A stretch of 64,000 nt of DNA from an archaeon (GTDB lineage: Archaea; Iainarchaeota; Iainarchaeia; Iainarchaeales; JAAZKV01). Positions within the stretch are counted from its first letter, which is position 1. Every line of letters begins with the position of its first letter. A program made the translations under genes and the position numbers. Where the stretch lies: positions 294,876 to 358,875 of the forward strand of contig JBAZUY010000001.1 of assembly GCA_041661245.1 (NCBI GenBank). Direction: 5' to 3'. The notes beneath the pieces are model-generated. The model made no database searches and had not been told where the DNA came from. It worked only from the letters and a program-made list of their open reading frames with translations. Below, one piece after another: positions 3,420 to 60,480 of the stretch.

Positions 3420-4265
3420 TCATTCAACTTGGTCAATTATTGATTTATTTATTTGTTGAGCCATGTTTTTATTTTTTGCAATGCTTAACTTCACCTCAGC
3501 TTTTGCAGAAACTATTTTTGCCAATTCTTCAAGGTTAAGATTTTCTAACTTTTTTACTTTCTTAAAAAAAGCATCAAGTGCAAGAGCCGTTTCTTTTTGG
3601 TAATTTGTTTGAATCACAAGAGATCCATGTGTAGAAATTGCATATTCTTTATCAAACTCTGAACGTGATGAAAGAATAGACACTTTTACGCCCAAATCCC
3701 TATAAAACTTTACAGTTAGTTTGTCTAAAATAGTGTTTCCTGTAATTAGAAAATAGGACTTTGTTCCCCCAGATAATAATTTAGTCATGAGTTTTCGTTC
3801 AGATTCAGGAAAAAGAATTGCTTCCCACATGTGATGCGTTTGATAACAATTGATATCCCCTTTTTCCGTTTTATTTGACTCGAGTGAATGCTGCCAAAAC
3901 TTCATCATTTCAGCAATTGAATCAAAAGTAAATACAGACAAATCTTCCCCTATTGCATCAACGCGCTTACGTACAGGCGCAATTGAAAACAATTGTGAAT
4001 GTAGCGCATCAATTTCTTTTTTTGCTTGGGAAATCCAACGTTTATCAATTGAATACTTAGAGTTTTCCTCTATTAATGCACCCGCAATAACTAACTCGTG
4101 CACAGCTTTTCTAACCCCTTGAAAAGTAACTTGCTTACCATGTCTTCTTTGCACCAAATTGGTTAATTGAATAATTTTTAGAGGAGATTCTTTTGTAAGA
4201 ATTCCAAACACAATTGATTTCACAGAATCTTTCCTTCCAAAACAAAGTTCTAGTAATGAATCCAT
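3420..4265 (-). CDS. Winged-helix DNA-binding protein, uncharacterised family (paralogue of 41871..42695)
   Basis: The N-terminal ~70 aa (IVFGILTKESPLKIIQLTNLVQRRHGKQVTFQGVRKAVHELVIAGALIE) look like a wHTH. The same architecture and length occur in the ORF at 41871. Confidence 0.4.
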   Translation of the reverse strand: MDSLLELCFGRKDSVKSIVFGILTKESPLKIIQLTNLVQRRHGKQVTFQGVRKAVHELVIAGALIEENSKYSIDKRWISQAKKEIDALHSQLFSIAPVRKRVDAIGEDLSVFTFDSIAEMMKFWQHSLESNKTEKGDINCYQTHHMWEAILFPESERKLMTKLLSGGTKSYFLITGNTILDKLTVKFYRDLGVKVSILSSRSEFDKEYAISTHGSLVIQTNYQKETALALDAFFKKVKKLENLNLEELAKIVSAKAEVKLSIAKNKNMAQQINKSIIDQVE

Positions 4266-49587: not shown

Positions 49588-50454
49588 ATGAGCCCCTCAA
49601 AAAGAAGAGTAAACGTAGCAGCCAATTCAAACAGGTCTTTATTTGAGACACTCAAAAGTCGACTCACTCCTGATGAAGTACGCGCACTCAACCAGCAATT
49701 CGTTAGAGTTGCAAGAATCAATAGGGGCGCTCAAAAAGGAATTTTTCTAAACCCTGAAAATAGCAAAATTGATTCAGATACAATGAAACGTGTTCATGCT
49801 CGATGGGAAAAAAGAGCAGGCGCCCCAGTGATTGGCGCAGATTATCTGTTGTATAAGAAAAAAGGAAAAATGCAACCACGAAGGATCCAGTCTCAAGAAG
49901 TAGCCATTAGATTTGCTTTAAAAGATTTAATTGCAAATACAATTCACTTAAAACCATCCCTTATTGAAAAACACATCTTGGAAGAATTAATCCTCTCTCA
50001 CCCGCATAGAAAATTCCCAGGAACCTCAATTGCCCCAAAAATGAAAGCGGACATATTACTTATGCGACTACTAAACAACTCAAGTTCTGCAAGAGCTAGA
50101 GAACTAGTAGAGGCAATTTCCAATCGAGCAATTAAGATTCAGAAATTAGCGCAATCAAAAGAAGTGTATTCTAACACAAAAAGTGATTCATTCATTAACA
50201 TTGGATCCAGAATTGGCGGGCTTATTACCCAACTTGAATTAGAACTTGGAGATCATCGATTCACAAAAGACTCTGCACACGCTTTCGCAAAAAGAATACA
50301 AACCCAAATACAACAAAGAGAAGAAGAAAGAAGACAACTAGCACACATGAAAGAACTAGAACATAGAAAAGGAATACTCCGTGAAGTAGATGCCGAACTT
50401 AATAAAGCACGAGAAGACCTTACAACATTTAAGGAAAAACATCACATCCAATAA
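49588..50454 (+). CDS. Hypothetical basic protein
   Basis: 288-aa ORF with no recognisable motif and a C-terminal coiled coil. Confidence 0.4.
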   Translation: MSPSKRRVNVAANSNRSLFETLKSRLTPDEVRALNQQFVRVARINRGAQKGIFLNPENSKIDSDTMKRVHARWEKRAGAPVIGADYLLYKKKGKMQPRRIQSQEVAIRFALKDLIANTIHLKPSLIEKHILEELILSHPHRKFPGTSIAPKMKADILLMRLLNNSSSARARELVEAISNRAIKIQKLAQSKEVYSNTKSDSFINIGSRIGGLITQLELELGDHRFTKDSAHAFAKRIQTQIQQREEERRQLAHMKELEHRKGILREVDAELNKAREDLTTFKEKHHIQ

Positions 50455-50522
50455 ATTGCCAAAATCAAATCACAAACACCAATTTAAGCTATACAAATTA
50501 TTACACCTAAATCAAAATAGGC

Positions 50523-50530
50523 TTTATAAA
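50523..50530 (+). promoter_or_regulatory. TATA box (TTTATAAA) of the trp operon promoter
   Basis: This is the only strong TATA-like octamer in the 328-nt intergenic region. It lies about 25 nt upstream of the ATG at 50553. Confidence 0.4.
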
Positions 50531-50552
50531 GGTCACAAGCACTAGTGTTATT

Positions 50553-50588
50553 ATGAAACATTTATTTGTCTGGAGTCCTTTCATCTAA
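50553..50588 (+). CDS. Candidate leaderless trp leader peptide MKHLFVWSPFI (11 codons)
   Basis: Own reading: ATG AAA CAT TTA TTT GTC TGG AGT CCT TTC ATC TAA. The Trp codon sits inside a segment that can pair with 50613..50625. Confidence 0.35.
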   Translation: MKHLFVWSPFI

Positions 50589-50782
50589 TTTAATTAGGCT
50601 CACCAAGCGAGTACTCCAGGCAAATTATAACATTTTTATTTCAACTTACCTCCAAACAGGCGTTTTTAAGTCTAATTCTCATCCAAATATATTTGTCTGG
50701 TGGCAGTAATAAGCCTCTAAAAATAAGGTTTTATTAGGAAAAATTAATTTTAAAAAAGGATAAAATTAAGGGGATGGATTAA

Positions 50783-52069
50783 ATGAAAACAGAGAATAAG
50801 AAAGAAAGTGAATTAAGTAAAAAAGTGATAATGCTTACCAAGGAAGAGATTCCAACACACTATTATAATGTGCTAGCGGATTTACCTTTTCCATTACCAA
50901 TGCCACAAGGAGATTTAGAAATACTGGGCAAAATATTTCCTCAAGAAATACTCGGACAAGAAATGAGTCAAGAAAAATTTATTCCAATCCCTGATGAAGT
51001 AAGAGAGATTTATGCAAAAATAGGACGACCAACTCCATTACAAAGAGCAGATAGACTTGAAAAAGCACTTGGAACAAATTGTAAAATATTTTTCAAAAGA
51101 GAAGACACTACATTACAAGGAAGTCACAAAATTAATACTGCACTGGCACAAGCCTATTATATCAAAAAAGCAGGTTACAAAAATGTTACAACAGAAACAG
51201 GAGCAGGACAATGGGGATGCGCACTTTCACTTGCATCAAAATTCTTTGGATTAAACTGTACGGTTTACCAAGTAAAATGCAGTTATGAACAAAAACCTGC
51301 AAGAAGAACAATAATGAAATTATTTGGAGCAAAAGTAATTGCAAGTCCAAGTGACACTACAAAAATTGGAAGAGAAATGCAAAAAAAATTCCCAAACACT
51401 TCTGGATCATTAGGAATGGCTATTGCAGAAGCTGTTGAAGTTGCAAAAGAAAGAGAAGACACAGTATACAGTTTAGGAAGCGTACTAAACCACGTACTAT
51501 TACACCAAACAATAATTGGACAAGAAGTAAAAAAGCAACTTGAAAAAATCGGAGAAAAAGCAGATGTTATTATTGCATGCGTTGGAGGAGGAAGTAACTT
51601 CGGAGGAATCGCATTCCCTTTCATCCCGGATGTACTCAAAGGAGAAAAAATTGAAATTATTGCAGTTGAACCAAGTGAAGTGCCAAGTATGACAAAAGGA
51701 GAATACAAATTTGATTATGGAGACACAGGAAAACAAACTCCATTACTAAAAATGTACACTCTTGGAGCGGATTATGTTCCCGAAGCAATATACGCTGGAG
51801 GATTAAGATACCACGGAATGTCTCCAATTGTTTCCCTGCTATTTGACCACAAATTAATCAAAGCAGTTTCCCATACTCAAAAAGAATGCTTTGAAGCAGC
51901 AAAATTATTTGCAGAAACAGAAGGAATAATTGCAGCACCAGAATCAAGCCATGCACTAAAAGAAGCAATTGAACAAGCAAAGAAAAATAATGGAAAAACA
52001 ATTGTATTCAATTTATCCGGAAATGGGATATTGGATTTAAGTGCATATGAAAAAGTATTGGAATTGTAA
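50783..52069 (+). CDS. trpB2: Tryptophan synthase beta chain, TrpB2 (long) type
   Basis: EDTTLQGSHKINTALAQAYY, TETGAGQWG and GGGSNFGG. 428 aa with an N-terminal extension. Confidence 0.9.
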   Translation: MKTENKKESELSKKVIMLTKEEIPTHYYNVLADLPFPLPMPQGDLEILGKIFPQEILGQEMSQEKFIPIPDEVREIYAKIGRPTPLQRADRLEKALGTNCKIFFKREDTTLQGSHKINTALAQAYYIKKAGYKNVTTETGAGQWGCALSLASKFFGLNCTVYQVKCSYEQKPARRTIMKLFGAKVIASPSDTTKIGREMQKKFPNTSGSLGMAIAEAVEVAKEREDTVYSLGSVLNHVLLHQTIIGQEVKKQLEKIGEKADVIIACVGGGSNFGGIAFPFIPDVLKGEKIEIIAVEPSEVPSMTKGEYKFDYGDTGKQTPLLKMYTLGADYVPEAIYAGGLRYHGMSPIVSLLFDHKLIKAVSHTQKECFEAAKLFAETEGIIAAPESSHALKEAIEQAKKNNGKTIVFNLSGNGILDLSAYEKVLEL

Positions 52070-52125: not shown

Positions 52126-53313
52126 GTGAATGAAGATATGGAAAAAAATATTTTTGATACAAAGAACACACGCTTTGGAGAATTTGGCGGACAATTCATC
52201 CCCGAAATGATGATGCCTGCACAAAAAGCTCTTGAGGAAGCATTCAACAAATACGCATTCACTTCAGAGTTTCAAAAAGAACTAGATTATTTACTAAAAG
52301 AATTCGCAGGAAGAGAAACCCCCCTCTATTTTGCAGAAAATATGTCAAAAGATATTGGATGCAAAGTTTACCTAAAAAGAGAAGATCTCTTACACAGTGG
52401 AGCACACAAAATAAATAACGCACTCGGACAAGCCCTACTTGCAAAAAAAATGGGTAAAAAAGAAATCATTGCAGAAACAGGAGCAGGACAACACGGAGTA
52501 GCAACAGCAATTGTTGGAGCACTATTCAAAATCCCTGTAAAAGTATTCATGGGAGAAATTGATGTAAAAAGACAAGCACTAAATGTTTACCGAATGAAAC
52601 TATTTGGAGCAGAAGTAATTTCAGTAACAAGCGGAAGCAAAACTCTAAAAGATGCTGGAAACGAAGCAATGAGATATTATTTAGCAAACGTAGAAACTTG
52701 TTATTATTTAATAGGAAGCGCAGTAGGACCACACCCTTATCCAAAAATAGTTCAACACTTCCAAAAAGTAATTGGAAAAGAAATTAAAGAACAAATACTT
52801 GCAAAAGAAAAAAAACTTCCCAGTGTTATTGTTGCATGCATTGGAGGAGGATCAAACGCAATAGGAGCATTTGATAATTTCCTAAATGATAAAAGCGTTA
52901 AACTTGTTGGAATTGAAGCCGGGGGAAACGGAGTAAAACATGGAAAAACACTTGGAGAAGGAACAATCGGAATTTTCCAAGGAAGCAAATCATATTTACT
53001 TCAAACAAAAGACGGACAAGTATGCGAAGCGCACAGTATTTCAGCTGGACTTGATTATCCGGGAGTCGGCCCAGTACACAGTTTCCTAAAAGATAGCAAA
53101 AGAGGAACTTACGAAAGCGCAACAGATGATGAAGCAGTAAAAGCACTTAGATACTTGTGCAAAATGGAAGGAATTTTACCAGCACTAGAATCCTCACACG
53201 CAATTGCATATGTTTTACGAAACAAAGGAAAATTCAAAAAAGAGGACATTGTTGTAATTAACCTCTCAGGAAGAGGAGACAAAGATGTTAATCAATTATT
53301 AGAGGTGGAATAA
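52126..53313 (+). CDS. trpB: Tryptophan synthase beta chain, TrpB1 type
   Basis: FGEFGGQFIPE, HSGAHKINNALGQ, TGAGQHG and GGGSNAIG. Confidence 0.93.
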   Translation: MNEDMEKNIFDTKNTRFGEFGGQFIPEMMMPAQKALEEAFNKYAFTSEFQKELDYLLKEFAGRETPLYFAENMSKDIGCKVYLKREDLLHSGAHKINNALGQALLAKKMGKKEIIAETGAGQHGVATAIVGALFKIPVKVFMGEIDVKRQALNVYRMKLFGAEVISVTSGSKTLKDAGNEAMRYYLANVETCYYLIGSAVGPHPYPKIVQHFQKVIGKEIKEQILAKEKKLPSVIVACIGGGSNAIGAFDNFLNDKSVKLVGIEAGGNGVKHGKTLGEGTIGIFQGSKSYLLQTKDGQVCEAHSISAGLDYPGVGPVHSFLKDSKRGTYESATDDEAVKALRYLCKMEGILPALESSHAIAYVLRNKGKFKKEDIVVINLSGRGDKDVNQLLEVE

Positions 53314-54083
53314 TGTTTAAGAGCAAAGTTTTCATGCCATTCGCAGTACTTGGAGACCCCAACTATGAAGAATCACTAAAAATAATTCAAGGATTTGTAA
53401 AAAATGGAGCAGGAGCACTAGAACTTGGATTTGCATTTAGTGACCCAATCGCAGATGGACCAATAATACAAAAAGCAAATAATCGGGCACTAGAAAATGG
53501 AATCACTACAAAGAAAGCATTTGAAATAATTGAAAAAGTGAGAAAAGACACAAGTATTCCAATTAGCGTAATGTTAAGTTACAACATTGTTTACAACTAT
53601 GGAGTAGAAAACTTTTACAAAAAATGCGCAGAACTAAAAGTAGATGGAGTCCTTTGCCCGGATGTACCCCTTGAGGAAGCGGAAGAATTAATTGAACTTT
53701 CAAAAAAATACAAACTCGCACAAATATTCATTGTATCCCCAACTACAACAAAAGAAAGAATGGGACTACTCAACAAATACGCAAGCGGATACACCTACAT
53801 GGTTTCTCTACTTGGAACAACAGGAGTAAAAACAGAACTAAACACACAACTCCCAGCAATGATAAAACTTTGTAAAAAAGAAATGAAACTCCCACTCTAC
53901 GTAGGATTTGGAATAAGTAAGCCAGAACACGCAGCTAACGTAATAAAACTAGGCGCTGACGGAGCAATAAGCGGATCAGCTATTTGTAAAATAGTTGAAG
54001 AAAACTTAACTAATCCCAAAGAAATGCAAGCAAAGATCAACAAATTTTGCAAAGAAATGAGTGAGGCCGTAAAGAATGCCTGA
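53313..54083 (+). CDS. trpA: Tryptophan synthase alpha chain
   Basis: LELGFAFSDPIADGPIIQKA and GFGISKPEH. The ATG overlaps the trpB stop. Confidence 0.9.
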   Translation: MFKSKVFMPFAVLGDPNYEESLKIIQGFVKNGAGALELGFAFSDPIADGPIIQKANNRALENGITTKKAFEIIEKVRKDTSIPISVMLSYNIVYNYGVENFYKKCAELKVDGVLCPDVPLEEAEELIELSKKYKLAQIFIVSPTTTKERMGLLNKYASGYTYMVSLLGTTGVKTELNTQLPAMIKLCKKEMKLPLYVGFGISKPEHAANVIKLGADGAISGSAICKIVEENLTNPKEMQAKINKFCKEMSEAVKNA

Positions 54084-55428
54084 TATTTTAGATCAGATAG
54101 TGGAGAACAAAAGAAAGGAAGTTTTAATTTCTAAGAAAAAACTCCCTCTTGCAAAACTCCAAAAAGGACTGCTTCCTAGCGAGAAAAACTTCTTTTCCGC
54201 ACTAAAAGGAAAAAACAACATTATTGCAGAAATAAAATACAAATCCCCTTCAGCAGGGAAGATTGGAAAAAAGAGATCAATTAAAGAAATTGCAACTGCT
54301 TACAACAAATACGCAAGTGCAATCTCTGTACTCACTGATAAAAAATTCTTTGCAGGAGATTTGAAGTACATTAAAGAAACAAAAAAATACACCCAGTTAC
54401 CAATACTTAGAAAAGATTTCATTATTGATGAATACCAAATATACGAAGCAAGATATTTTGGGGCAGATGCCATATTACTAATTGCATCAATACTTTCTGC
54501 TGAAGAAATTGAGAAATATTTATTCATTGCACGAAAACTTGGAATGGAAGCTTTAGTTGAAACAAAAACAAAAGAAGAAATAGAAAAAGTACTTCGTACA
54601 AGTGCAAGAATAATTGGAATTAATAATAGAAATTTAGCGGATTTCAAAATTACGCTTAATACTACAAAGGAACTAAAAAAACTAATCCCTGCCGAGCGAA
54701 TTGTTGTTAGTGAATCAGGGATTTACACAAAAGCAGACATTTTGGACCTTGACACAAATGCAGCACTAATTGGAACTTCTTTAATTGAAGCAAAAGATAT
54801 TAGTGAAAAACTCTCTTCCCTTCACAAAGTAAAAGTAAAAATCTGCGGAATCACAAATTTAGAAGATGCAAAAAATGCAATAGACGCAGGAGCAGACATT
54901 TTGGGATTTAATTTTTATACAAAAAGCCCGCGATATATACCGACTGCAAAAGCAACTGAAATAATTAAGAACTTGCCAAACACCGTACAAACTGTAGGAG
55001 TATTTGTAAACTCTCCTGCAAAAGAAGTTAAAGAAATCCAAAAACAAACCGGAATTGATTTCATTCAATTACACGGAGATGAAACAGAAAAATTTTGCAA
55101 ACAAATTGGAGCAAACACAATAAAAGCCCAAAGAGTAAAAGAAAAACTACCCACGGAGAAAGAATTGATTTACGCAAGACTATATGACACCTTCGACCCT
55201 AACGCATTTGGAGGAACTGGAAAAACATTCGATAAGAAACTATTAAAACAGGCAAAAGGCAAAATAATTGTAGCTGGCGGGCTAAAAATAGATAATGTAA
55301 ATGAATCCATTCAGTCAATTCACCCCTACGCACTAGACACTTGCTCGGGAGTAGAAAGCACCCTTGGAAAGAAAGATAAAACAAAAATGATTAATTTTAT
55401 TCAAAAGGTGAGAGAAAATGACAATTAA
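54076..55428 (+). CDS. trpCF: Fused indole-3-glycerol-phosphate synthase / phosphoribosylanthranilate isomerase
   Basis: N-terminal half ILDQIVENKRKEV, AEIKYKSPSAG and ILRKDFIIDEYQI. C-terminal half VKICGITNLEDA. Confidence 0.9.
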   Translation: MPDILDQIVENKRKEVLISKKKLPLAKLQKGLLPSEKNFFSALKGKNNIIAEIKYKSPSAGKIGKKRSIKEIATAYNKYASAISVLTDKKFFAGDLKYIKETKKYTQLPILRKDFIIDEYQIYEARYFGADAILLIASILSAEEIEKYLFIARKLGMEALVETKTKEEIEKVLRTSARIIGINNRNLADFKITLNTTKELKKLIPAERIVVSESGIYTKADILDLDTNAALIGTSLIEAKDISEKLSSLHKVKVKICGITNLEDAKNAIDAGADILGFNFYTKSPRYIPTAKATEIIKNLPNTVQTVGVFVNSPAKEVKEIQKQTGIDFIQLHGDETEKFCKQIGANTIKAQRVKEKLPTEKELIYARLYDTFDPNAFGGTGKTFDKKLLKQAKGKIIVAGGLKIDNVNESIQSIHPYALDTCSGVESTLGKKDKTKMINFIQKVRENDN

Positions 55429-56899
55429 AATTACTACAAAAATCACCCCAATAAAATACACTAATCCTTTCGATTTGTACTCCAAGCTAAGCAATAAAGG
55501 AAACTTACTGAGTTTATTATTTGAATCAAAATCACCAAATCAAAAATATGAAAGAAAAAGCATGATTGTGGCAGACCTAGCTTTAAAGATTGTTGGAAAA
55601 AATGAAAACTTTAGCGTAATTGCATTAAACAAAGCGGGAGAGAAATTACTTTCTAACTTTTCCAAAAAAGATTTTACTTATTCAACAAATTTCACACAGG
55701 ATAAAAGAAATATTTCAGGCAAAGTAGAAAAGAAAGAAAATAATGAATTAAGCGAAGAGGAAAATGAGAAACTGGCAAACATTTCATTTGTAATAAAAAC
55801 AATCCTTGCAAAATTCGAGTCCGAGAACTCGTATGCTGGACTTTATGGAGTATTTGCTTATGATTTTGCCAAAAACTTTTACAAGGTAAAAGAGAAACAA
55901 ATAGATCTTGGAGAAAAAGACTTCGAACTCTTTTTACCAACAAAAGTTTATGTGATGTATGACGATGAAAAACGAGCAGAGGAACTGAACTTTTATTTTA
56001 ATGGAAAAAAGTTTTCTAGCGAAAACCCAATTAAAGGATTTGAATTCAAAAAAGAAACAAATAAAATAGAATATGATCTTAGCGACGAAGAATACAAAAA
56101 AATCGTTGGAAAAGCAATTACCGATATCAAAAATGGGCGAGTGATGCAATGTGTCTTATCAAGAAAAACAACCGTGCCTTTGCAAAAGCACCCATTTGAA
56201 TCATACCGTGAACTAAGAGAAACAAATCCCTCCCCTTATTCATTTTATTATAACCTTGGAGAAAATGAAATCCTTTACGGAGCTTCACCAGAAATGCACA
56301 TTAAAATTGACATTACCCCAAGAGGAAAAGAAATACAAATTCGACCAATCGCAGGAACAATAATGCGATCGGCAAATCCTTTAGAGGATGCGGAGAATAG
56401 AAAACAATTACTTAATGATGAAAAAGAAATAAGAGAGCACACAATGCTAGTGGATCTTGCAAGACACGAACTATACAAATTATGTAATTCTCAAAGTGTA
56501 GAAGTAACAGATCTTTACACGCTCGAACACTATCCTAACCTTTACCATTTAGTTTCAGGGGTTAAAGGAATATTAAAGAAAAATAACAATGCAATTGATG
56601 CACTACTTGTAACTCTTCCTGCAGGCACATTAAGCGGAGCACCAAAACAAGAATCAATGAACATGATTGAACAATATGAAGGATCAAAGCGAGGATTTTA
56701 TGGAGGAGCAAGCGGGGTAGTTTCATTTAACGGAGCATGCAACACAGGAATCACAATCAGATCTGTGCACGTAAGAAACAATAAATCAGAAATCCGCGGA
56801 GGAGCAGGAGTAGTTGCTTTATCCACCCCCGAAGGAGAATTACAAGAAATTAAACTAAAAATATCAAAAGCAATGAGTGTACTGGAGGAGAAAAAATGA
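55418..56899 (+). CDS. trpE: Anthranilate synthase component I
   Basis: LYGASPEMH, GTLSGAPK and RGFYGGASG. Confidence 0.9.
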   Translation: MTIKITTKITPIKYTNPFDLYSKLSNKGNLLSLLFESKSPNQKYERKSMIVADLALKIVGKNENFSVIALNKAGEKLLSNFSKKDFTYSTNFTQDKRNISGKVEKKENNELSEEENEKLANISFVIKTILAKFESENSYAGLYGVFAYDFAKNFYKVKEKQIDLGEKDFELFLPTKVYVMYDDEKRAEELNFYFNGKKFSSENPIKGFEFKKETNKIEYDLSDEEYKKIVGKAITDIKNGRVMQCVLSRKTTVPLQKHPFESYRELRETNPSPYSFYYNLGENEILYGASPEMHIKIDITPRGKEIQIRPIAGTIMRSANPLEDAENRKQLLNDEKEIREHTMLVDLARHELYKLCNSQSVEVTDLYTLEHYPNLYHLVSGVKGILKKNNNAIDALLVTLPAGTLSGAPKQESMNMIEQYEGSKRGFYGGASGVVSFNGACNTGITIRSVHVRNNKSEIRGGAGVVALSTPEGELQEIKLKISKAMSVLEEKK

Positions 56900-58539
56900 A
56901 AATAGTTTTTATTGACAATTATGATTCCTTTGCAAATACAATTGCAGCATACTTTGCTAATGCCGGCGCAGAAGTAGTAATGTACAACTCAAACTGTTCA
57001 ATTGAAACAATAAAAAAACAAAAACCTGACCTTATTTTACTTGGGCCAGGACCTAACGGACCAAGAGAAGCAGGAAATTATTTAGAAGTAATTGATAAAT
57101 TCCATAAAACTACCCCAATTTTTGGAATATGTTTAGGATTTCAAGCAATAATGGAATACTTTGGAGAAAGCGTAAAACCATTAGCGGAAGTAATGCATGG
57201 ACAAGCAAGTGAAGTAGAACATGATGGAAAAACAATTTTCCGAGGAATTGCACCAAAACAAAAATTCGCAAGGTATCATTCATTAGGAGTACTAAAAGTT
57301 CCTGAATGTTTTGAGTTATCTGCAAAAGCAGGAAATGTAGTGATGTCTGCAAGACACAAAACATACCAAGTGGAAGGAGTACAATTCCACCCCGAATCAA
57401 TTCTCTCAATGCACAACGAAGGCGGGGAAAAACTTATTGAAAATATAATAAACCAATGTGGAAAAGTGCGCGATAACACTACAAGCAACATAAGTTTTGG
57501 AAAAGAAACTCTTCCAATCAATCAAACATCAAATAATCTTAAAGAAATAATAAAAAAAGTAATTCAAAAGGAAGAACTAAACGAAAAAGACGTGGAGGAA
57601 ATTGTTACTTTGATTGAACAAAACACATTTATCCCAACTCAACTCGCAGGATTACTTTGTGCACTTGAAACAAAAAAAATAACTGCAAATGAACTTTCAC
57701 TACTTGTTGAAAAATTAATTCAGAAAGCACAAACTGTTGACCTCGGAAAGGATTGCATTGATGTTTGCGGAACTGGAGGGGATGGAAAAAATACATTTAA
57801 TATTTCCACAGCAACGATGTTTGTTATAGCGGGAGCAGGAGTTAAAGTTGCAAAACACGGAAACAAAGCGGTATCCTCAAGCAGCGGGAGCTTTGATGCT
57901 CTTGAAGCCCTAGGAATTAATACTGCCAACATAACGATTAATCCAAAAGAAACAATGAATAAAACTGGAATTGCATTTTTATTCGCACAAAAACACCACC
58001 CTTTATTCAAAAATGTTGGGCCACTTCGAAAAGAACTGGGAGTTAAAACAGTATTCAATTTAATGGGACCTCTACTTAATCCTGCAAAAACTAAAAAACA
58101 ATTAATGGGAGTATTTAATCCAGAACTCACAGAAACAATTGCAGAAGTAATGAAGAAAAGAGGAATAGAAAGAGCAATGGTCGTTAATGGAGAAGGACTT
58201 GACGAAATAACAATTACTGGAAAAACAAAAATAACTCAACTTGAAAAAAGCAAAATCACAACAACATATTTTGATCCAAAAGAATTTGGATTCAACTATG
58301 CAAAATTTTCTGAACTTGAGGCAAAAACAAAAGAAGAAAGCGCACAAATAATACTTGACATCTTAAACGGAAAGAAAGGAGCAAAAAGAGACATAGTTGT
58401 GCTAAATGCTGCAGCAGCACTTATTGTTGCAGGAAAAGCAAAGGATTTCAAAGAGGGAATAAAATTAGCTCAAGAGTCAATTGATTCAGGCAACGCACTA
58501 AATACATTTGAAGAACTCAAGAAAACTTCTCAAAGTTAA
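56896..58539 (+). CDS. trpGD: Fused anthranilate synthase component II (glutamine amidotransferase) / anthranilate phosphoribosyltransferase
   Basis: IDNYDSF and GICLGFQAI (GATase Cys), then CGTGGDGKNTFNISTA and KHGNKAVSSSSGSFDALEALG. Confidence 0.9.
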   Translation: MKIVFIDNYDSFANTIAAYFANAGAEVVMYNSNCSIETIKKQKPDLILLGPGPNGPREAGNYLEVIDKFHKTTPIFGICLGFQAIMEYFGESVKPLAEVMHGQASEVEHDGKTIFRGIAPKQKFARYHSLGVLKVPECFELSAKAGNVVMSARHKTYQVEGVQFHPESILSMHNEGGEKLIENIINQCGKVRDNTTSNISFGKETLPINQTSNNLKEIIKKVIQKEELNEKDVEEIVTLIEQNTFIPTQLAGLLCALETKKITANELSLLVEKLIQKAQTVDLGKDCIDVCGTGGDGKNTFNISTATMFVIAGAGVKVAKHGNKAVSSSSGSFDALEALGINTANITINPKETMNKTGIAFLFAQKHHPLFKNVGPLRKELGVKTVFNLMGPLLNPAKTKKQLMGVFNPELTETIAEVMKKRGIERAMVVNGEGLDEITITGKTKITQLEKSKITTTYFDPKEFGFNYAKFSELEAKTKEESAQIILDILNGKKGAKRDIVVLNAAAALIVAGKAKDFKEGIKLAQESIDSGNALNTFEELKKTSQS

Positions 58540-58587
58540 ATCCAAAACAACACAAGGCTAAGTTTAAAAAAGACAAGAAAACAAGTA

Positions 58588-59715
58588 ATGTTTAATCAAA
58601 GTGAAAAAATGACTGAAAAAGAAAAAGTAGTGGTGGATCCATGGGGAAGCGACCTTGTGGAGGATTACACAAGACTCCAAAAAGAATTTGGAATGAGCGA
58701 ATTTGATAAAACAATGTTCCCTGAACCAAATTTACAAATGCGAAGAGGAGTAAACTTCGGCATACAAGACGCTGAAGCTATAGCTACCGCTATCAAGAAC
58801 AAAAAACCATTTTACGTACTAAGCGGAATAATGCCTTCAAGCGAAAAAATACACTTAGGAACAGAAACAGTAATTCAAAATATTAGATACTTCCAAGACC
58901 ATGGAGCAAAAACCTACGTTGTAATTGCGGATGTTGAATCCCAAGCAACAAGAGGAATAACTCTTGAAGAAGGGAAAAAAAGAGCTCTTGAATTTCACAT
59001 TCCCGCATATATTGCACTAGGCCTCGACCCAGCAAAAACAAATTTTTATTTGCAAAGCGAAAACAAGAAAGTTTCAAACCTTGCGGCAATAGCCTCACAA
59101 AAAGTAACAGAGAATGAATTTAGAGCAATCTATGGTTCAGTTCATCCAGCAAAAGTAATGAGTGCATTTACACAAATGGGAGATATACTCTACCCACAGT
59201 TAGCTGAAAAAATGCCAGGAATAATCCCTGTTGGAATTGATCAAGCCCCACACATTAGAATGGTCAGAGATGTTGCAAGAAGACTAAAAGCAGAATACGG
59301 ATTCTTTTTGCCAAGTGCATTGTACAATAAATATACTTCAGCACTTGATGGATCATTTAAGATGAGTAAAAGTGCTAGCGAACTAGGAAAAATAGAAATC
59401 CCTGAAAAAGACTTGGGAGTACTTGAAAAGAAAATAAACAAAACTCTAACAGGGGGAAGAGCAACACGCGAAGAACAAAAAGCAAAAGGTGGAGACATTG
59501 CAAAATGCATTGTTTACGAGTACTGCAAAAACCATTTTATTAAAGACGACAAAATACTTCAAACAATGTTTGAAGAATGCACTACTGGAAAAAATCTTTG
59601 CGGAGAATGTAAAGCAAAATACCCAGTACCTTATGCTAAAAAGTTCTATGAAGATTTTAATAAAAAGTTTGAGGAAGCAAAAAAAACTATTGGAAAACTA
59701 AGGTTTGTTGATTAA
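58588..59715 (+). CDS. trpS: Tryptophanyl-tRNA synthetase (archaeal/eukaryotic type)
   Basis: GIMPSSEKIHLG (HIGH-like), FKMSKS (KMSKS) and AKCIVYEYC. 48 nt after trpGD on the same strand. Confidence 0.9.
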   Translation: MFNQSEKMTEKEKVVVDPWGSDLVEDYTRLQKEFGMSEFDKTMFPEPNLQMRRGVNFGIQDAEAIATAIKNKKPFYVLSGIMPSSEKIHLGTETVIQNIRYFQDHGAKTYVVIADVESQATRGITLEEGKKRALEFHIPAYIALGLDPAKTNFYLQSENKKVSNLAAIASQKVTENEFRAIYGSVHPAKVMSAFTQMGDILYPQLAEKMPGIIPVGIDQAPHIRMVRDVARRLKAEYGFFLPSALYNKYTSALDGSFKMSKSASELGKIEIPEKDLGVLEKKINKTLTGGRATREEQKAKGGDIAKCIVYEYCKNHFIKDDKILQTMFEECTTGKNLCGECKAKYPVPYAKKFYEDFNKKFEEAKKTIGKLRFVD

Positions 59716-60480
59716 ATGAAATATACTTCTTCACAAAGAAGCGCAGCTTCCCAAGCTAAATCAAGACACACAAAAATACCTTTTACTAAAGCCTTAGGAC
59801 AAGTACTTGAAGCAAGTTCAAAAGCAAGAGCAAGAAATAGGGCTGAAAAACTAAGTGAACTACGAAGATTCACTTGGATGCTAAAAAGAGCAGGATTTAA
59901 AGATGCAAGCAATATGGGCGCAGGAGTGGATATTTCAATTGAAACTGTAATCAGAGGAAAAAAAGTAAAAATAACTGCCGACCAAAAAGTTGCTAACGGT
60001 GGAAAACACGGAGACGGAGCAATAGAAACAAGAATACAAAACAAGCAACTTTACAACAAAGCAGATTGGATAATCGTATTAAACAAAGAAAGAACAATGG
60101 AAGCTTTCCCTGCTGAAGCACTAGCCAGATTTGTAAAACAACAATTTGGAAGCTTAAGATTTTACGAACGCAGAAAAAAATATGATGTTTATTCAGTAAG
60201 ACTAGCAGACCTTTACAGATTTATGAAACAAATATTAGAATCTGAACCAATAAAAATAGGATTAAGCAAAGAAGCAGGAAAGTTGCTTATTGAAGAAATG
60301 ATTAAACGCGAAAGAGCAAAGTTACCCCCACTAGCTAAACCAAAAAATCCGCCAATTTATAGAGGCCCTGTTAGAAAAGGATTAACAAGAGCAAAAAATG
60401 CTAAAGCACCAAACACCCCACTTAGAAGCAGGCAGAGAATATTTGATAGAAAAGTTAATCCAGGGATAAGACAAAAGTAA
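59716..60480 (+). CDS. Hypothetical protein with PD-(D/E)xK-like motif, paralogue A
   Basis: The start abuts the trpS stop. GVDISIE...KITADQK...NKADWIIVLNKE...FPAEALARFVKQQ. Basic P/K/R-rich tail. Confidence 0.45.
   Translation: MKYTSSQRSAASQAKSRHTKIPFTKALGQVLEASSKARARNRAEKLSELRRFTWMLKRAGFKDASNMGAGVDISIETVIRGKKVKITADQKVANGGKHGDGAIETRIQNKQLYNKADWIIVLNKERTMEAFPAEALARFVKQQFGSLRFYERRKKYDVYSVRLADLYRFMKQILESEPIKIGLSKEAGKLLIEEMIKRERAKLPPLAKPKNPPIYRGPVRKGLTRAKNAKAPNTPLRSRQRIFDRKVNPGIRQK

What the first reader, a model, noticed from the sequence alone, without database searches (positions are those of the whole stretch)
50523..50782. Attenuator-like trp leader: leaderless Trp-containing uORF, duplicated TATTTGTCTGG element and mutually exclusive pairings
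Seen: the 328-nt region upstream of trpB2 has a TATA box (TTTATAAA, 50523-50530). About 25 nt downstream an ATG (50553) opens an 11-codon ORF, MKHLFVWSPFI-stop. Segment 1 (ATTTGTCTGGAGT, 50564-50576) contains the TGG codon and is complementary over 13 bp (one G-U) to segment 2 (ACTCCAGGCAAAT, 50613-50625). Segment 2 is followed 7 nt later by TTTTTATTT (50633-50641). The 11-mer TATTTGTCTGG recurs at 50690-50700 as segment 3, where it runs into TGG TGG CAG TAA (50698-50709). That is a tandem Trp pair in a frame that has no ATG but has an in-frame TTG at 50566. Segment 3 can pair with segment 2 over 10 bp, so the 1:2 and 2:3 pairings are mutually exclusive. Established: bacterial trp operons use ribosome stalling at Trp codons in a leader peptide to choose between alternative RNA structures. 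Oligo-T tracts terminate archaeal RNA polymerase. Ribosome-mediated attenuation is not an established mechanism for archaeal trp operons, where TrpY-type repression is the known mode. Inference: this is a candidate translation-coupled attenuator, or a translational switch, in an archaeon. It may have been acquired together with a bacterial-style operon.
Basis: partly seen in the sequence, partly recalled or inferred. Interest (0 to 1): 0.7.

Follow-up and report, generated by a model that had tools for sequence, protein, structure and literature searches.

The report
Archaeal tryptophan-sensing leader with overlapping ORFs
The stretch in front of this archaeon's tryptophan operon is a conserved control region in which ribosomes reading tiny Trp-codon-bearing reading frames appear to sense tryptophan supply, a kind of control not established in archaea and possibly working by a deliberate reading-frame slip at the Trp codon.

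Summary
The seg1:seg2 hairpin folds far better than shuffles (z -4.4).

Homologous leaders were found at 26 trpB2 loci of DPANN (Iainarchaeota-like) archaea. They share these features:
- An operator-like inverted repeat.
- A TATA box 21-23 nt before an ATG, which implies a leaderless transcript.
- A mini-ORF with one in-frame UGG. The ATG-to-UGG distance takes seven values, all multiples of 3.
- A covarying hairpin that holds that UGG in its 5' arm.
- New here: a +1-frame ORF that is open from that UGG for 29-78 codons in all 26 loci. It always ends W(W)-x0-5-stop, and in the window ...FVWWQ*.

The 2:3 pairing and the oligo-T tract are not conserved. No known RNA family matches.

Most relatives carry a tRNA-Trp gene or a tRNA-like relic between the leader and trpB2. 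Sixteen have a second Trp mini-ORF with trpB2 in its +1 frame, which is a textbook signature of programmed +1 frameshifting. The window has lost both.

Best reading: a ribosome-mediated sensor of charged tRNA-Trp, probably through a +1 slip at a slowly decoded UGG. The sensing role is well supported. The slip and the output step are inferred. New variant of a known kind; high interest.

The parts
50490..50506 (.). Operator-like inverted repeat TATACAAATTATTACAC. The family consensus is TGTACA-N4-RTYACA, and L167 has the perfect palindrome TGTGAC-AAAT-GTCACA. It lies 16 nt upstream of the TATA box.
   Evidence: Conserved at the same position in 22 of the 23 loci compared. The only other window matches, with 3 mismatches, lie inside ORFs. 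The protein that binds it is unknown.
50523..50530 (+). TATA box TTTATAAA.
   Evidence: An A/T-rich 8-mer lies 21-23 nt upstream of the uORF1 ATG in 25 loci. By general knowledge of archaeal promoters, this spacing puts the transcription start at or next to the A of the ATG.
50553..50588 (+). uORF1, a leaderless mini-ORF encoding MKHLFVWSPFI-stop, with one Trp codon at 50571-50573.
   Evidence: Present in 26 loci. The ATG-to-TGG distance is 15, 18, 21, 27, 30, 33 or 48 nt, always a multiple of 3.
50568..50574 (+). GUC UGG A: the Trp decoding site, and the candidate pause and +1 shift site (GUC U|GGA).
   Evidence: The codon before UGG is GUC in 23 loci, CUU in 2 and GUU in 1. The +1 frame is open from here in all 26.
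50564..50576 (+). 5' arm of the conserved hairpin (segment 1). It contains the UGG.
50613..50625 (+). 3' arm of the conserved hairpin (segment 2).
   Evidence: Hairpin z = -4.41. It is predicted in all 18 loci folded. Covariation score is 0.264 against 0.178 for shuffles, with 0 of 500 shuffles as high. The arms differ completely in L170 and L162, yet the UGG stays in the 5' arm.
50599..50604 (+). CTCACC motif in the hairpin loop. Function unknown.
   Evidence: Invariant in the five loci first aligned and present across the main clade, often with a second copy after the hairpin. It is read in a different frame in L159, so it acts at the nucleic-acid level. It is not seen in L162, L166, L168 or L170.
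50566..50709 (+). Long leader ORF in the +1 frame of uORF1. Entry is at TTG 50566, or by a +1 slip at 50572. It encodes ...GVLSSNLIRLTKRVLQANYNIFISTYLQTGVFKSNSHPNIFVWWQ, stops at 50707-50709, and a second TAA follows at 50710-50712.
   Evidence: The frame is open for 29-78 codons in all 26 loci and always ends W(W)x0-5-stop. Trp occurs nowhere else in the peptide. Shuffle p per locus is 0.016-0.34, and the sum of log10 p over 15 lineages is -15.9.
50633..50641 (+). T-run TTTTTATTT, 7 nt after the hairpin. A second T5 lies at 50663-50667.
   Evidence: T-runs of 5 or more occur in this part of the leader in 16 of 23 loci, about twice the shuffle expectation, but are absent in 7.
50690..50703 (+). 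Segment 3: a repeat of TATTTGTCTGG that runs into the tandem Trp codons TGG TGG (50698-50703) at the end of the long ORF.
   Evidence: Only the Trp codon or codons are conserved across the family; the repeat and the 2:3 pairing are lineage-specific.
50768..50775 (+). Shine-Dalgarno-like AAGGGGAT, 7 nt before the trpB2 ATG.
   Evidence: Relatives have GGAG(A/U)UGA(U/A) at the same place.
50783..52069 (+). trpB2, the first gene of the operon. In the window its N-terminal extension MKTENKKESELSKKVI is in frame with the enzyme body.
   Evidence: NF009057 scores 646.7 bits against a cutoff of 366. In 16 relatives the equivalent extension is a separate Trp mini-ORF with trpB2 in its +1 frame.
52126..59715 (+). 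Rest of the operon: trpB, trpA, trpCF, trpE, trpGD and trpS (tryptophanyl-tRNA synthetase, 58588-59715).
   Evidence: Pfam. NCBIfam: TIGR00263 trpB scores 593.7 bits and TIGR00233 trpS scores 205.9 bits against a cutoff of 176.75.

Best explanation
Window 50490-50782 is the promoter and 5' leader of a tryptophan-supply operon (trpB2-trpB-trpA-trpCF-trpE-trpGD-trpS) in a DPANN, Iainarchaeota-like archaeon. It acts as a ribosome-mediated sensor of charged tRNA-Trp.

Shown:
- The TATA box lies 22 nt before ATG 50553, so the mRNA is probably leaderless.
- The 11-codon uORF1 has one UGG (50571), which sits in the 5' arm of a conserved hairpin.
- A second reading frame, +1 relative to uORF1, is open from that UGG for 45 codons and ends UGG UGG CAG UAA.
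- This architecture is conserved in 26 loci although the sequence between the anchors is scrambled.

Inferred mechanism:
- A ribosome loads on the 5' AUG while the RNA is still being made, before segment 2 exists to close the hairpin.
- With plentiful Trp-tRNA it reads UGG, terminates at 50586-50588 and leaves. The hairpin then closes, which would also block further leaderless initiation. About 190 nt of U-rich leader stay untranslated, so transcription ends early at U-runs and/or through the archaeal termination factor.
- With scarce Trp-tRNA the ribosome pauses with UGG in the A site and slips +1 (GUC U|GGA). It translates the long ORF through the hairpin and the U-runs close behind the polymerase, then parks on the terminal UGG UGG. 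This shields the nascent RNA so that the polymerase reaches trpB2.

An unidentified protein bound at the inverted repeat upstream of the TATA box probably adds a second, transcriptional layer of control.
For: uORF1 is translated through its UGG:
- The ATG-to-TGG distance takes seven values (15 to 48 nt), all multiples of 3. That implies at least six in-frame indels, with a chance probability of about (1/3)^6.
- The TATA-to-ATG gap is 21-23 nt in 25 loci.

The +1 ORF is real:
- It has no stop in the +1 frame in any of 26 loci over 29-78 codons. In the 23 loci tabulated, frame 0 has 1-7 stops over the same span and frame +2 has 0-5.
- Shuffle tests sum to log10 p = -15.9 over 15 lineages.
- Trp occurs only in the last 1-7 residues of the peptide.
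- The peptide is otherwise unconserved. Selection therefore acts on being translated, as in leader peptides.

The hairpin is real: z = -4.4, it covaries, and L170 and L162 have entirely different arms with the UGG still in the 5' arm.

A +1 slip rather than separate initiation:
- L159, L164, L166 and L162 have no ATG, GTG or TTG in the +1 frame upstream of the UGG.
- In L162 the +1 frame is closed by TAG immediately before the site, and the +1 ORF contains no canonical start codon at all. It still runs 45 codons to ...SWLW-stop.
- The TTG at 50566 lies inside the hairpin stem, under uORF1, and has no Shine-Dalgarno sequence.

Parallel evidence from relatives, at the second mini-ORF in 16 loci:
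- It ends ..RRDL(A/V/L)W..stop, and trpB2 is always in its +1 frame.
- The TGG-to-Met distance is 3n+1, with n = 9 to 22.
- The stretch in between encodes a conserved L-G-x-K-V with synonymous Leu and Gly codon changes. In 9 loci it has no start codon, and a TAG closes the frame just before the site.
- L163 (interrupted) and L087 (contiguous) differ by one extra T exactly at GCC-U-GG.

Other points:
- L166 and L170 use the uORF2-type peptide and a CUU UGG site in the uORF1 position, which links the two kinds of site.
- The operon supplies everything that determines Trp-tRNA levels: TrpB2, the pathway enzymes, TrpRS and, in relatives, tRNA-Trp itself.
- A slow A-site codon is a known driver of +1 frameshifting (PMC5009743).
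Against: - No experimental data exist. The transcription start, the translation of either ORF, the slip and the termination step are all inferred.
- Of the 25 loci tabulated (the window included) do have a TTG or GTG in the +1 frame shortly upstream of the UGG. Separate initiation of the long ORF therefore cannot be excluded for the window.
- The codons before UGG (GUC, GCC) cannot re-pair in the +1 frame. The slip would have to be of the out-of-frame A-site binding type. Only the CUU UGG sites resemble prfB.
- The uORF1-type site has no clear Shine-Dalgarno-like stimulator.
- No conserved terminator was found: T-runs are absent in 7 of 23 loci. The output step rests on analogy with polarity and factor-dependent termination.
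- The invariant CTCACC motif and the role of the terminal Trp codons are not explained.
- Shuffle p-values were multiplied across related lineages, which overstates independence.
- The arms-only alignment used for covariation was built from RNAfold partners, so it leans toward the structure.
Confidence: 0.5

Rival explanations
1. Stall-only leader-peptide control without frameshifting. uORF1 (from ATG 50553) and the long ORF (from TTG 50566) are initiated independently. Ribosomes stalled at UGG 50571 and at UGG UGG 50698-50703 under Trp limitation shield the RNA or remodel it, as in bacterial attenuators and the mycobacterial leaderless poly-Cys short ORFs.
For: - Of the 25 loci tabulated, 22 have a TTG or GTG in the +1 frame upstream of the UGG.
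- L087, L163 and L173 changed TTG to GTG, and L170 has a GTG at a different position.
- Tandem Trp codons near the end of a leader peptide are the classical design.
- Leaderless short ORFs work as attenuators in mycobacteria (bioRxiv 10.1101/834739).
Against: - The TTG is part of the conserved hairpin arm, so its conservation is explained by pairing.
- It has no Shine-Dalgarno sequence, lies 5 nt before the UGG of an overlapping ORF, and is buried in a hairpin of -19 to -31 kcal/mol.
- Four lineages lack any upstream start in that frame. L162 has no canonical start anywhere in the ORF and yet keeps it open to W-L-W-stop.
- No conserved structure was found that a stalled ribosome would open. 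Pairing of the post-Trp region with the Shine-Dalgarno region is at background in most loci.
- This model leaves the in-frame conservation of uORF1's own UGG without a role.
Confidence: 0.27
2. The first reader's model, a bacterial-style structural attenuator. The 1:2 hairpin plus the downstream oligo-T terminates transcription. A ribosome stalled on segment 1 frees segment 2 to pair with segment 3, or simply prevents 1:2, and so allows read-through.
For: - In the window and L078 both 1:2 and 2:3 are well above background: -19/-21 and -14/-17 kcal/mol, with z = -3.5 and -4.1 for 2:3.
- A T5 run follows the hairpin by 7-8 nt.
- T-runs are about twice as frequent in these leaders as expected.
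Against: - The 2:3 pairing is at background in at least 10 of 21 loci.
- 7 of 23 loci have no T-run at all, and where one exists its distance from the hairpin ranges from about 0 to more than 60 nt.
- No terminator-like hairpin plus T-tail was detected.
- By general knowledge, archaeal polymerase terminates at oligo-T without needing a hairpin, so 1:2 would not gate it in the bacterial manner.
- The model does not explain the conserved +1 ORF.
Confidence: 0.1
3. Regulation is purely transcriptional, through the protein that binds the inverted repeat upstream of the TATA box (TrpY-like). The small ORFs and the hairpin are then by-products of a pre-tRNA or mRNA leader with no sensing role.
For: - The inverted repeat TGTACA-N4-RTYACA is conserved in 22 of 23 loci.
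- TrpY repression through TRP boxes is the characterised archaeal trp repression mechanism (PMC6737238). That the TRP box consensus is TGTACA is my recollection and was not verified here.
Against: - It cannot explain the multiples-of-3 spacing of ATG to UGG, the stop-free +1 frame in 26 of 26 loci that always ends in Trp codons, or the +1 arrangement of trpB2 in 16 relatives.
- An operator and a leader sensor are not mutually exclusive.
Confidence: 0.05
4. A T-box-like or other RNA sensor that binds uncharged tRNA-Trp directly. The UGG would be presented as a specifier, and UGGU of segment 3 would pair with the ACCA 3' end.
For: UGGUGG is complementary to the CC-A-CCA 3' end of the co-encoded tRNA-Trp. 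Segment 2 resembles the tRNA-Trp anticodon loop sequence CUCCAGA.
Against: - No T-box or other Rfam family matches in the window at E <= 10 or in 20 relatives.
- The fourth base of the segment-3 UGGN is U or C while the discriminator stays A73, so there is no covariation.
- This idea does not explain the reading-frame conservation.
Confidence: 0.02

Closest known systems
Bacterial trp leader-peptide attenuator (E. coli trpL; Rfam Trp_leader)
   Same: A short ORF upstream of trp genes carries Trp codons near its end (window ...FVWWQ-stop; E. coli ...GWWRTS-stop). A hairpin contains the regulatory codons. The sensor is the rate of decoding by charged tRNA-Trp.
   Different: - There is no sequence or structure match to the Rfam family.
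- There is no conserved antiterminator/terminator pair and no intrinsic terminator.
- The promoter is archaeal and the mRNA is probably leaderless.
- There are two overlapping frames, with a Trp codon at the point where they diverge.
Leaderless poly-Cys short ORF attenuators of mycobacteria (bioRxiv 10.1101/834739)
   Same: A leaderless sensory short ORF is the first cistron of an amino-acid operon. Ribosome pausing at codons for the cognate amino acid gives the signal.
   Different: There, a stalled ribosome opens a structure that hides the next gene's ribosome-binding site. No such conserved pairing was found here. That system is bacterial and has no overlapping +1 ORF.
Autoregulatory programmed +1 frameshifting (bacterial prfB/RF2; eukaryotic antizyme)
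   Same: A short 0-frame ORF ends soon after a slow-to-decode codon, and the product continues in the +1 frame. The shift rate reports the availability of the decoding factor. The uORF2 sites of relatives even have a Shine-Dalgarno-like AGGGAU 3 nt before the P-site codon, as prfB has AGGGGG-UAU-CUU UGA (prfB sequence from memory).
   Different: - The slow codon is a sense codon (UGG) that reports an aminoacyl-tRNA, not a release factor or polyamines.
- The P-site codons GUC and GCC cannot re-pair in the +1 frame.
- In the window the +1 product is a leader peptide, not the enzyme.
- The review PMC5009743 treats hungry-codon frameshifting only as an unresolved possibility for starvation-specific products and gives no such amino-acid-biosynthesis control among the passages I read.
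TrpY / TRP-box repression in Methanothermobacter and Tar activation in Thermococcus (PMC6737238)
   Same: Both are archaeal control of trp genes. A conserved inverted repeat containing TGTACA sits next to the core promoter.
   Different: Those systems are purely protein/DNA based and have no leader ORFs. No TrpY gene was looked for here, and the operator's partner is unknown.
T-box riboswitches of bacterial trp and trpS genes
   Same: They sense tRNA-Trp charging upstream of trp and trpS genes.
   Different: There is no Rfam match, no specifier-loop or T-box architecture, and no covariation with the discriminator base.

Membership tests
Bacterial leader-peptide transcription attenuator (trpL type) | A short translated leader ORF with regulatory codons for the cognate amino acid. 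| tested here: met
   uORF1 has an in-frame UGG in 26 loci, at spacings that are all multiples of 3. The long ORF ends W(W)x0-5-stop.
Bacterial leader-peptide transcription attenuator (trpL type) | Mutually exclusive antiterminator and terminator hairpins. | tested here: not met
   The 2:3 pairing is at background in at least 10 of 21 loci. No 3:4 element was found.
Bacterial leader-peptide transcription attenuator (trpL type) | An intrinsic terminator (GC-rich hairpin followed by a U-tract) before the first structural gene. | tested here: not met
   The terminator scan found none in 50300-50900. T-runs are absent in 7 of 23 loci.
Bacterial leader-peptide transcription attenuator (trpL type) | A match to the curated RNA family (Rfam Trp_leader). 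| tested here: not met
   No match at gathering score or at E <= 10, and none in 20 relatives.
Programmed +1 ribosomal frameshift sensor (prfB/antizyme type) | The 0-frame ORF terminates shortly after a slow-to-decode codon, and the +1 frame is open from that codon onward. | tested here: met
   In the window, UGG is at 50571, the 0-frame stop at 50586-50588, and the +1 frame is open for 45 codons. The same holds in 26 of 26 loci and at 16 uORF2 sites.
Programmed +1 ribosomal frameshift sensor (prfB/antizyme type) | The +1 product has no initiation codon of its own. | tested here: inconclusive
   Met at uORF2->trpB2 in 9 relatives, and at the uORF1 site in L159, L164, L166 and L162. Not met in the window, where TTG 50566 is in the +1 frame.
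Programmed +1 ribosomal frameshift sensor (prfB/antizyme type) | Homologues with a contiguous ORF that matches the predicted trans-frame product. | tested here: met
   This holds for trpB2 in relatives. L087 MENKRRDLT-GSKLGEKVIML matches L163 MKNKRRDLA|GSKLGNKVIML, which has one extra T. L081 compares with L002 in the same way. No contiguous version of uORF1 plus the long ORF was found.
Programmed +1 ribosomal frameshift sensor (prfB/antizyme type) | A stimulatory Shine-Dalgarno-like element a few nt upstream, and a P-site tRNA able to re-pair in the +1 frame. | tested here: inconclusive
   AGAAGGGAUUUA lies before GCC UGG at uORF2 sites. No clear element precedes the window's GUC UGG. Re-pairing is possible only at the CUU UGG sites (L159, L166, L170).
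Programmed +1 ribosomal frameshift sensor (prfB/antizyme type) | A trans-frame protein is actually made, and its yield responds to the sensed factor. | not testable with these tools
   This needs reporters, ribosome profiling or proteomics.
T-box riboswitch | Stem I specifier loop, the T-box sequence, and UGGN pairing with the discriminator plus CCA. | tested here: not met
   No RF00230 match. The N of UGGN varies between U and C while the discriminator stays A.
TrpY/TRP-box repression | TRP-box operator at the promoter, and a TrpY regulator encoded in the genome. | not tested
   An inverted repeat containing TGTACA is conserved, but the TRP-box consensus is from memory and no TrpY homologue was searched for.

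The most novel reading that the evidence does not exclude
An amino-acid sensor built on programmed +1 frameshifting at a 'hungry' sense codon. In this DPANN clade the decoding speed of single UGG codons would decide which reading frame the ribosome follows. The first decision, in the leaderless leader, is between early termination and translation of a long leader ORF. The second, in 16 relatives, is at the start of trpB2, so that the enzyme is made only when Trp-tRNA is scarce. The operon under this control supplies tRNA-Trp, TrpRS and Trp synthesis. That would make it a self-contained homeostat for charged tRNA-Trp, and the first ribosome-mediated attenuation system described in archaea.
Probability: 0.5. 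Interest if true: 0.95.

Novelty: new variant of a known kind. Interest (0 to 1): 0.85.

Why it matters
- According to PMC6737238, the characterised archaeal trp regulators are the DNA-binding proteins TrpY and Tar, and little else is known. My full-text searches found no report of leader-peptide attenuation in archaea or of this leader.
- This family gives a concrete, sequence-defined candidate for translation-coupled gene control in archaea, and it occurs in reduced DPANN genomes.
- If the frameshift reading holds, it would be the first case I know of in which starvation-induced ('hungry codon') frameshifting is used as the sensor for an amino-acid pathway. That would be a new regulatory logic next to attenuators, T-boxes and riboswitches.
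- It also bears on annotation. In 16 related genomes trpB2 is probably mis-called from an internal Met, and its true N-terminus needs recoding.

Tried and rejected
- Known RNA families. Rfam found only three unrelated tRNAs in the window at gathering score. At E <= 10 on 50400-50850 it gave only chance-level hits. In 20 related loci it found nothing but the leader tRNAs.
- Bacterial promoter and terminator scan: none found.
- The 2:3 alternative pairing as a family feature: rejected.
- Oligo-T after the hairpin as a conserved terminator: enriched but not universal.
- An anti-Shine-Dalgarno element after the terminal Trp codons pairing with the trpB2 ribosome-binding site: 8-9 bp in L079, L080 and L005, background elsewhere and in the window. 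By-eye checks of a UCAUCC:GGAUGG pairing in the window found that it is not kept in L078.
- T-box-like pairing of UGGN with the tRNA 3' end: no covariation with the discriminator base.
- CTCACC pairing with segment 3 (UCACCA:UGGUGR) or acting as a mimic of the 16S 3' end: possible in some loci, not conserved. The motif remains unexplained.
- A third +1 slip from the long ORF into the trpB2 frame in the window: the frames fit, but two stops intervene.
- Other copies of the operator or of GTCTGGAG in the window: none of significance.
- A gapless arm-finding script failed on L082 because its stem has a bulge, so I used RNAfold partners instead.
- Literature searches for TrpY/TRP box, archaeal attenuation, Trp-codon frameshifting and Diapherotrites trp genes found no prior description. 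One search was rejected for syntax.
Full report
OBSERVATION. They are TTTATAAA at 50523-50530; ATG 50553 opening MKHLFVWSPFI-stop (to 50588); segment 1 (50564-50576) complementary to segment 2 (50613-50625); TTTTTATTT at 50633-50641; the 11-mer TATTTGTCTGG at 50563-50573 and again at 50690-50700; TGG TGG CAG TAA at 50698-50709; and TTG 50566 in that frame. The hairpin is not a chance feature. RNA 50553-50645 folds into it at -21.5 kcal/mol, against -10.4 +/- 2.5 for dinucleotide shuffles (z = -4.41, 0 of 200 shuffles as good). The whole leader is only weakly structured (z = -1.75). No bacterial-type terminator or sigma-70 promoter is present, and no Rfam family matches, even at E <= 10.

CONTEXT. 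The leader precedes trpB2 (50783-52069). Then come trpB, trpA, a trpC-trpF fusion, trpE, a trpG-trpD fusion and a tryptophanyl-tRNA synthetase gene (58588-59715) (Pfam; NCBIfam, with TrpB2, TrpB and TrpRS all above curated cutoffs). The TrpB2 protein is identical to one from an unclassified 'archaeon' MAG. Its nearest relatives (63-87% identity) come from MAGs labelled archaeon, Candidatus Iainarchaeum or Diapherotrites, that is DPANN archaea.

RELATED LOCI. I collected trpB2 loci in three ways: from one genome-collection scan, from one metagenome scan with an N-terminal alignment, and from twelve exact-protein look-ups. Twenty-six distinct loci carry a recognisably homologous or architecturally equivalent leader. 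These are the window plus L001-3, L005, L078-84, L086, L087, L089, L090, L158, L159(-161), L162-164, L166, L167, L168(/169), L170 and L173. L171, the Aenigmatarchaeota locus L007 and the bacterial loci do not carry it. In several relatives the operon is only leader-tRNA-trpB2-trpS plus two further genes. The leader therefore travels with trpB2 and trpS, not with the full pathway.

WHAT IS CONSERVED: PROMOTER AND uORF1. An inverted repeat, TGTACA-N4-RTYACA, lies 14-18 nt upstream of the TATA box in 22 of 23 loci. In the window it is 50490-50506; L167 has the perfect palindrome TGTGAC-AAAT-GTCACA. This looks like an operator for a dimeric DNA-binding protein. An A/T-rich 8-mer lies 21-23 nt before the ATG in 25 loci. 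By general knowledge of archaeal promoters, that spacing places the transcription start at or next to the A of the ATG, so the mRNA is probably leaderless. uORF1 is present in every locus with one UGG in frame. The ATG-to-TGG distance is 15, 18, 21, 27, 30, 33 or 48 nt, always a multiple of 3. That implies at least six in-frame length changes. The codon before UGG is GUC in 23 loci, CUU in 2 and GUU in 1. The stop follows 1-10 codons later.

WHAT IS CONSERVED: HAIRPIN AND MOTIF. The hairpin with UGG in its 5' arm is predicted in all 18 loci folded, at -19 to -31 kcal/mol. On an arms-only alignment of 21 loci, 76% of cells pair, against 29-46% when the partner column is slid. The covariation score is 0.264 against 0.178 for shuffles (0 of 500 as high), with compensatory changes at five positions. 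That alignment was built from RNAfold partners and so leans toward the structure. The GC-richer, distant loci L170 (CUUUGGCU/AGCCAAAG) and L162 (UGGCUG/CAGCCA) have wholly different arms and still place the UGG in the 5' arm. A CTCACC motif in or just after the hairpin loop is invariant in the main clade. It is read in a different frame in L159, so it is a nucleic-acid signal. I could not assign it a function.

THE NEW OBSERVATION: A LONG +1-FRAME ORF. Translating the leaders in three frames showed that the +1 frame is free of stops in every locus. It is open from the uORF1 UGG onward for 29-78 codons, across the hairpin and a spacer that cannot be aligned between lineages. It then stops 0-5 codons after one or two Trp codons. 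Examples are window ...NIFVWWQ*, L005 ...FFVWWRY*, L159 ...SKWWHSQN* after 78 codons, L168 ...HSVWWQP* after 75, L166 ...HWWPWSGN*, L162 ...SWLW*. In the 23 loci tabulated, frame 0 has 1-7 stops over the same span and frame +2 has 0-5. Per-locus dinucleotide-shuffle probabilities are 0.016-0.34, and log10 p summed over 15 lineages is -15.9. This overstates independence, but the spacers are effectively unrelated in sequence. Trp occurs nowhere else in these peptides, and the peptides are otherwise not conserved. That is the signature of a leader peptide: it must be translated, and what it encodes does not matter.

WHAT IS NOT CONSERVED. The 2:3 pairing is strong in the window and L078 (z = -3.5 and -4.1) and moderate in a few lineages. 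It is at background in at least ten of 21 loci. T-runs of 5 or more occur in the leader in 16 of 23 loci, about twice the shuffle expectation. They are absent in seven, and their distance from the hairpin varies widely. Pairing between the region after the terminal Trp codons and the trpB2 ribosome-binding site exists only in three loci. UGGN of segment 3 does not covary with the tRNA discriminator base. The bacterial terminator/antiterminator model and a T-box-like model therefore both fail as family-wide explanations.

WHAT RELATIVES HAVE AND THE WINDOW HAS LOST: tRNA-Trp. Between the long ORF and trpB2, most relatives carry a tRNA-Trp(CCA) gene (53-73 bits). It carries an intron in L089 and L173. 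I read the L089 intron as the canonical 37/38 position; ARAGORN called it differently. Other relatives carry a decayed tRNA-like relic (33-54 bits). The window and L078 have nothing there. A small hairpin whose sequence differs between loci, seen by eye only, follows the tRNA and precedes a strong Shine-Dalgarno sequence, GGAG(A/U)UGA(U/A).

WHAT RELATIVES HAVE AND THE WINDOW HAS LOST: A SECOND TRP MINI-ORF. In 16 loci the ATG after that Shine-Dalgarno sequence opens a second mini-ORF ending ...RRDL(A/V/L)W-x0-15-stop. The nucleotide consensus is AGAAGGGAUUUA GCC UGG N. trpB2 lies in the +1 frame of this mini-ORF in all 16. The TGG-to-Met distance is always 3n+1, with n = 9, 10, 12, 16, 19, 21 or 22. 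The intervening codons encode a conserved ...L-G-(K/T)-K-V-(V/I)-M-L. The Leu codon is TTA, CTC, CTT, TTG, CTG or CTA, and the Gly codon is GGA or GGC, which means selection acts on the protein. Yet nine loci have no ATG, GTG or TTG in that frame, and a TAG closes it immediately before the site. Loci with a contiguous ORF match the predicted trans-frame product. L087 MENKRRDLT-GSKLGEKVIML compares with L163 MKNKRRDLA|GSKLGNKVIML, which differs by one extra T at GCC-U-GGA. L081 is L002 plus 2 nt. This is the classical comparative signature of programmed +1 frameshifting, here at a Trp codon. A Shine-Dalgarno-like AGGGAU lies 3 nt before the P-site codon, as in prfB. In the window the extension (MKTENKKESELSKKVI) is simply in frame.

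MECHANISM. What is shown is that two overlapping frames are under selection to be translated, that they diverge at a UGG, and that the second frame ends in UGG codons. Which ribosomes read the second frame is inferred. I favour a +1 slip at the slowly decoded UGG (GUC U|GGA), for these reasons:
- Four lineages (L159, L164, L166, L162) have no start codon in the +1 frame upstream of the UGG. L162 has none anywhere in the ORF and has a TAG right before the site, yet keeps 45 open codons ending W-L-W-stop.
- The TTG at 50566 lies in the stem, under uORF1, and has no Shine-Dalgarno sequence. Its conservation is explained by pairing.
- L166 and L170 use the uORF2-type peptide with a CUU UGG site in the uORF1 position.
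- The same design is strongly supported for trpB2 in relatives.
- A slow A-site codon is an accepted driver of +1 shifts (PMC5009743).

Against this, 22 of the 25 loci tabulated, including the window, have a TTG or GTG available in the +1 frame. GUC and GCC cannot re-pair in the +1 frame. Nothing is experimentally known.

The output step is also inferred, from the U-rich leader, the enrichment of T-runs and general knowledge of archaeal termination and polarity. Under Trp sufficiency there would be early termination of translation, closure of the hairpin, and premature transcription termination on naked U-rich RNA. Under starvation there would be continued coupled translation and a ribosome parked on UGG UGG. 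The logic fits the cargo: the operon supplies Trp synthesis, TrpRS and, ancestrally, tRNA-Trp, which together are everything that sets the level of charged tRNA-Trp.

COMPARISON AND NOVELTY. The element works like a bacterial leader-peptide attenuator and like the leaderless poly-Cys short ORFs of mycobacteria (bioRxiv 10.1101/834739). It fails the membership tests for the trpL family: there is no terminator/antiterminator pair and no Rfam match. It shares the anatomy of prfB/antizyme-type +1 frameshift sensors, but the sensed species would be an aminoacyl-tRNA. PMC6737238 names the DNA-binding proteins TrpY and Tar as the characterised archaeal trp regulators, and my full-text searches found no description of this leader. 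I rate it a new variant of a known kind, with high interest. The most novel reading still allowed is a hungry-codon frameshift cascade acting as a homeostat for charged tRNA-Trp, at about even odds.

Noticed in passing
L001:3838-3908, L005:3894-3964, L084:865-935, L086:2810-2880, L087:2340-2410, L089:2826-2908, L090:2834-2904, L158:2296-2366, L159:2375-2445, L163:1347-1417, L167:735-805: A genuine tRNA-Trp(CCA) gene sits inside the leader, between the long leader ORF and trpB2. L089 carries a 12-nt intron, and L173 has a much longer insertion that looks like an intron. The window and L078 have lost this tRNA completely. Whether it is the only tRNA-Trp gene of these genomes is unknown.
   Followed up: partly
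L002:3876-3948, L003:1263-1334, L081:2851-2921, L080:2816-2890, L082:2730-2795, L083:1556-1626; also L164, L166, L168, L170: Where the tRNA-Trp has decayed, a tRNA-like relic is kept at the same spot. It retains the acceptor and T arm, but the anticodon arm is scrambled, replaced by about 110 nt, or deleted (Rfam 33-54 bits). L082 and L083 also carry an extra copy of the 3' half. This suggests the relic is retained as an RNA-processing signal.
   Followed up: partly
L003:1354-1389 and the equivalent sites in L001, L002, L079, L080, L082-84, L086, L088, L158, L159, L163, L164, L167, L173: A second Trp mini-ORF (..RRDL[AVL]W..stop) lies after a strong Shine-Dalgarno sequence, with trpB2 in its +1 frame and no start codon of its own. 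This is a probable programmed +1 frameshift at AGAAGGGAUUUA GCC U|GG. Gene callers start trpB2 at an internal Met (the 412-aa forms).
   Followed up: yes
window 50490-50506: The inverted repeat TGTACA-N4-RTYACA upstream of the TATA box is conserved in 22 of 23 loci. It is an operator for an unidentified regulator. Its resemblance to the TrpY 'TRP box' is from memory only.
   Followed up: partly
window 50599-50604: The invariant CTCACC motif, usually TAGGCTCACC(AGG/TCA), often has a second copy just 3' of the hairpin in relatives. It resembles the 16S rRNA 3' end GAUCACCUCC. No conserved pairing partner or role was found.
   Followed up: partly
e.g. L005 about 3968-3990, L090 about 2908-2945, L079 about 700-720 (between the tRNA and the Shine-Dalgarno sequence): A small hairpin whose sequence differs between loci but which always forms a stem-loop (GCACA-TAACT-TGTGC, GTGC-GAAA-GCAC, GCATC...GGATGC) lies between the tRNA 3' end and the ribosome-binding site. 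It was seen by eye only.
   Followed up: no
L158:3794-6208, L159:3828-6243; window 59716-60480: In several relatives the operon is only trpB2-trpS, followed by a conserved protein of about 250 aa with no Pfam or NCBIfam match and a GNAT acetyltransferase. In the window the six pathway genes are inserted between trpB2 and trpS, and the unknown 254-aa gene follows trpS.
   Followed up: no
L007: about 700-1035: The Aenigmatarchaeota trpB2 locus lacks this leader. It has a small ORF with a helix-turn-helix-like sequence ending right at the trpB2 ribosome-binding site, which may be a dedicated regulator.
   Followed up: no
L006:3700-4000: The Ca. Iainarchaeum locus lacks uORF1 and the hairpin. It keeps a short ORF with two Trp codons (..FQVWRHPKTKTWQ*), a tRNA-like relic and the Shine-Dalgarno sequence. 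It is a divergent or decaying version of the leader.
   Followed up: partly
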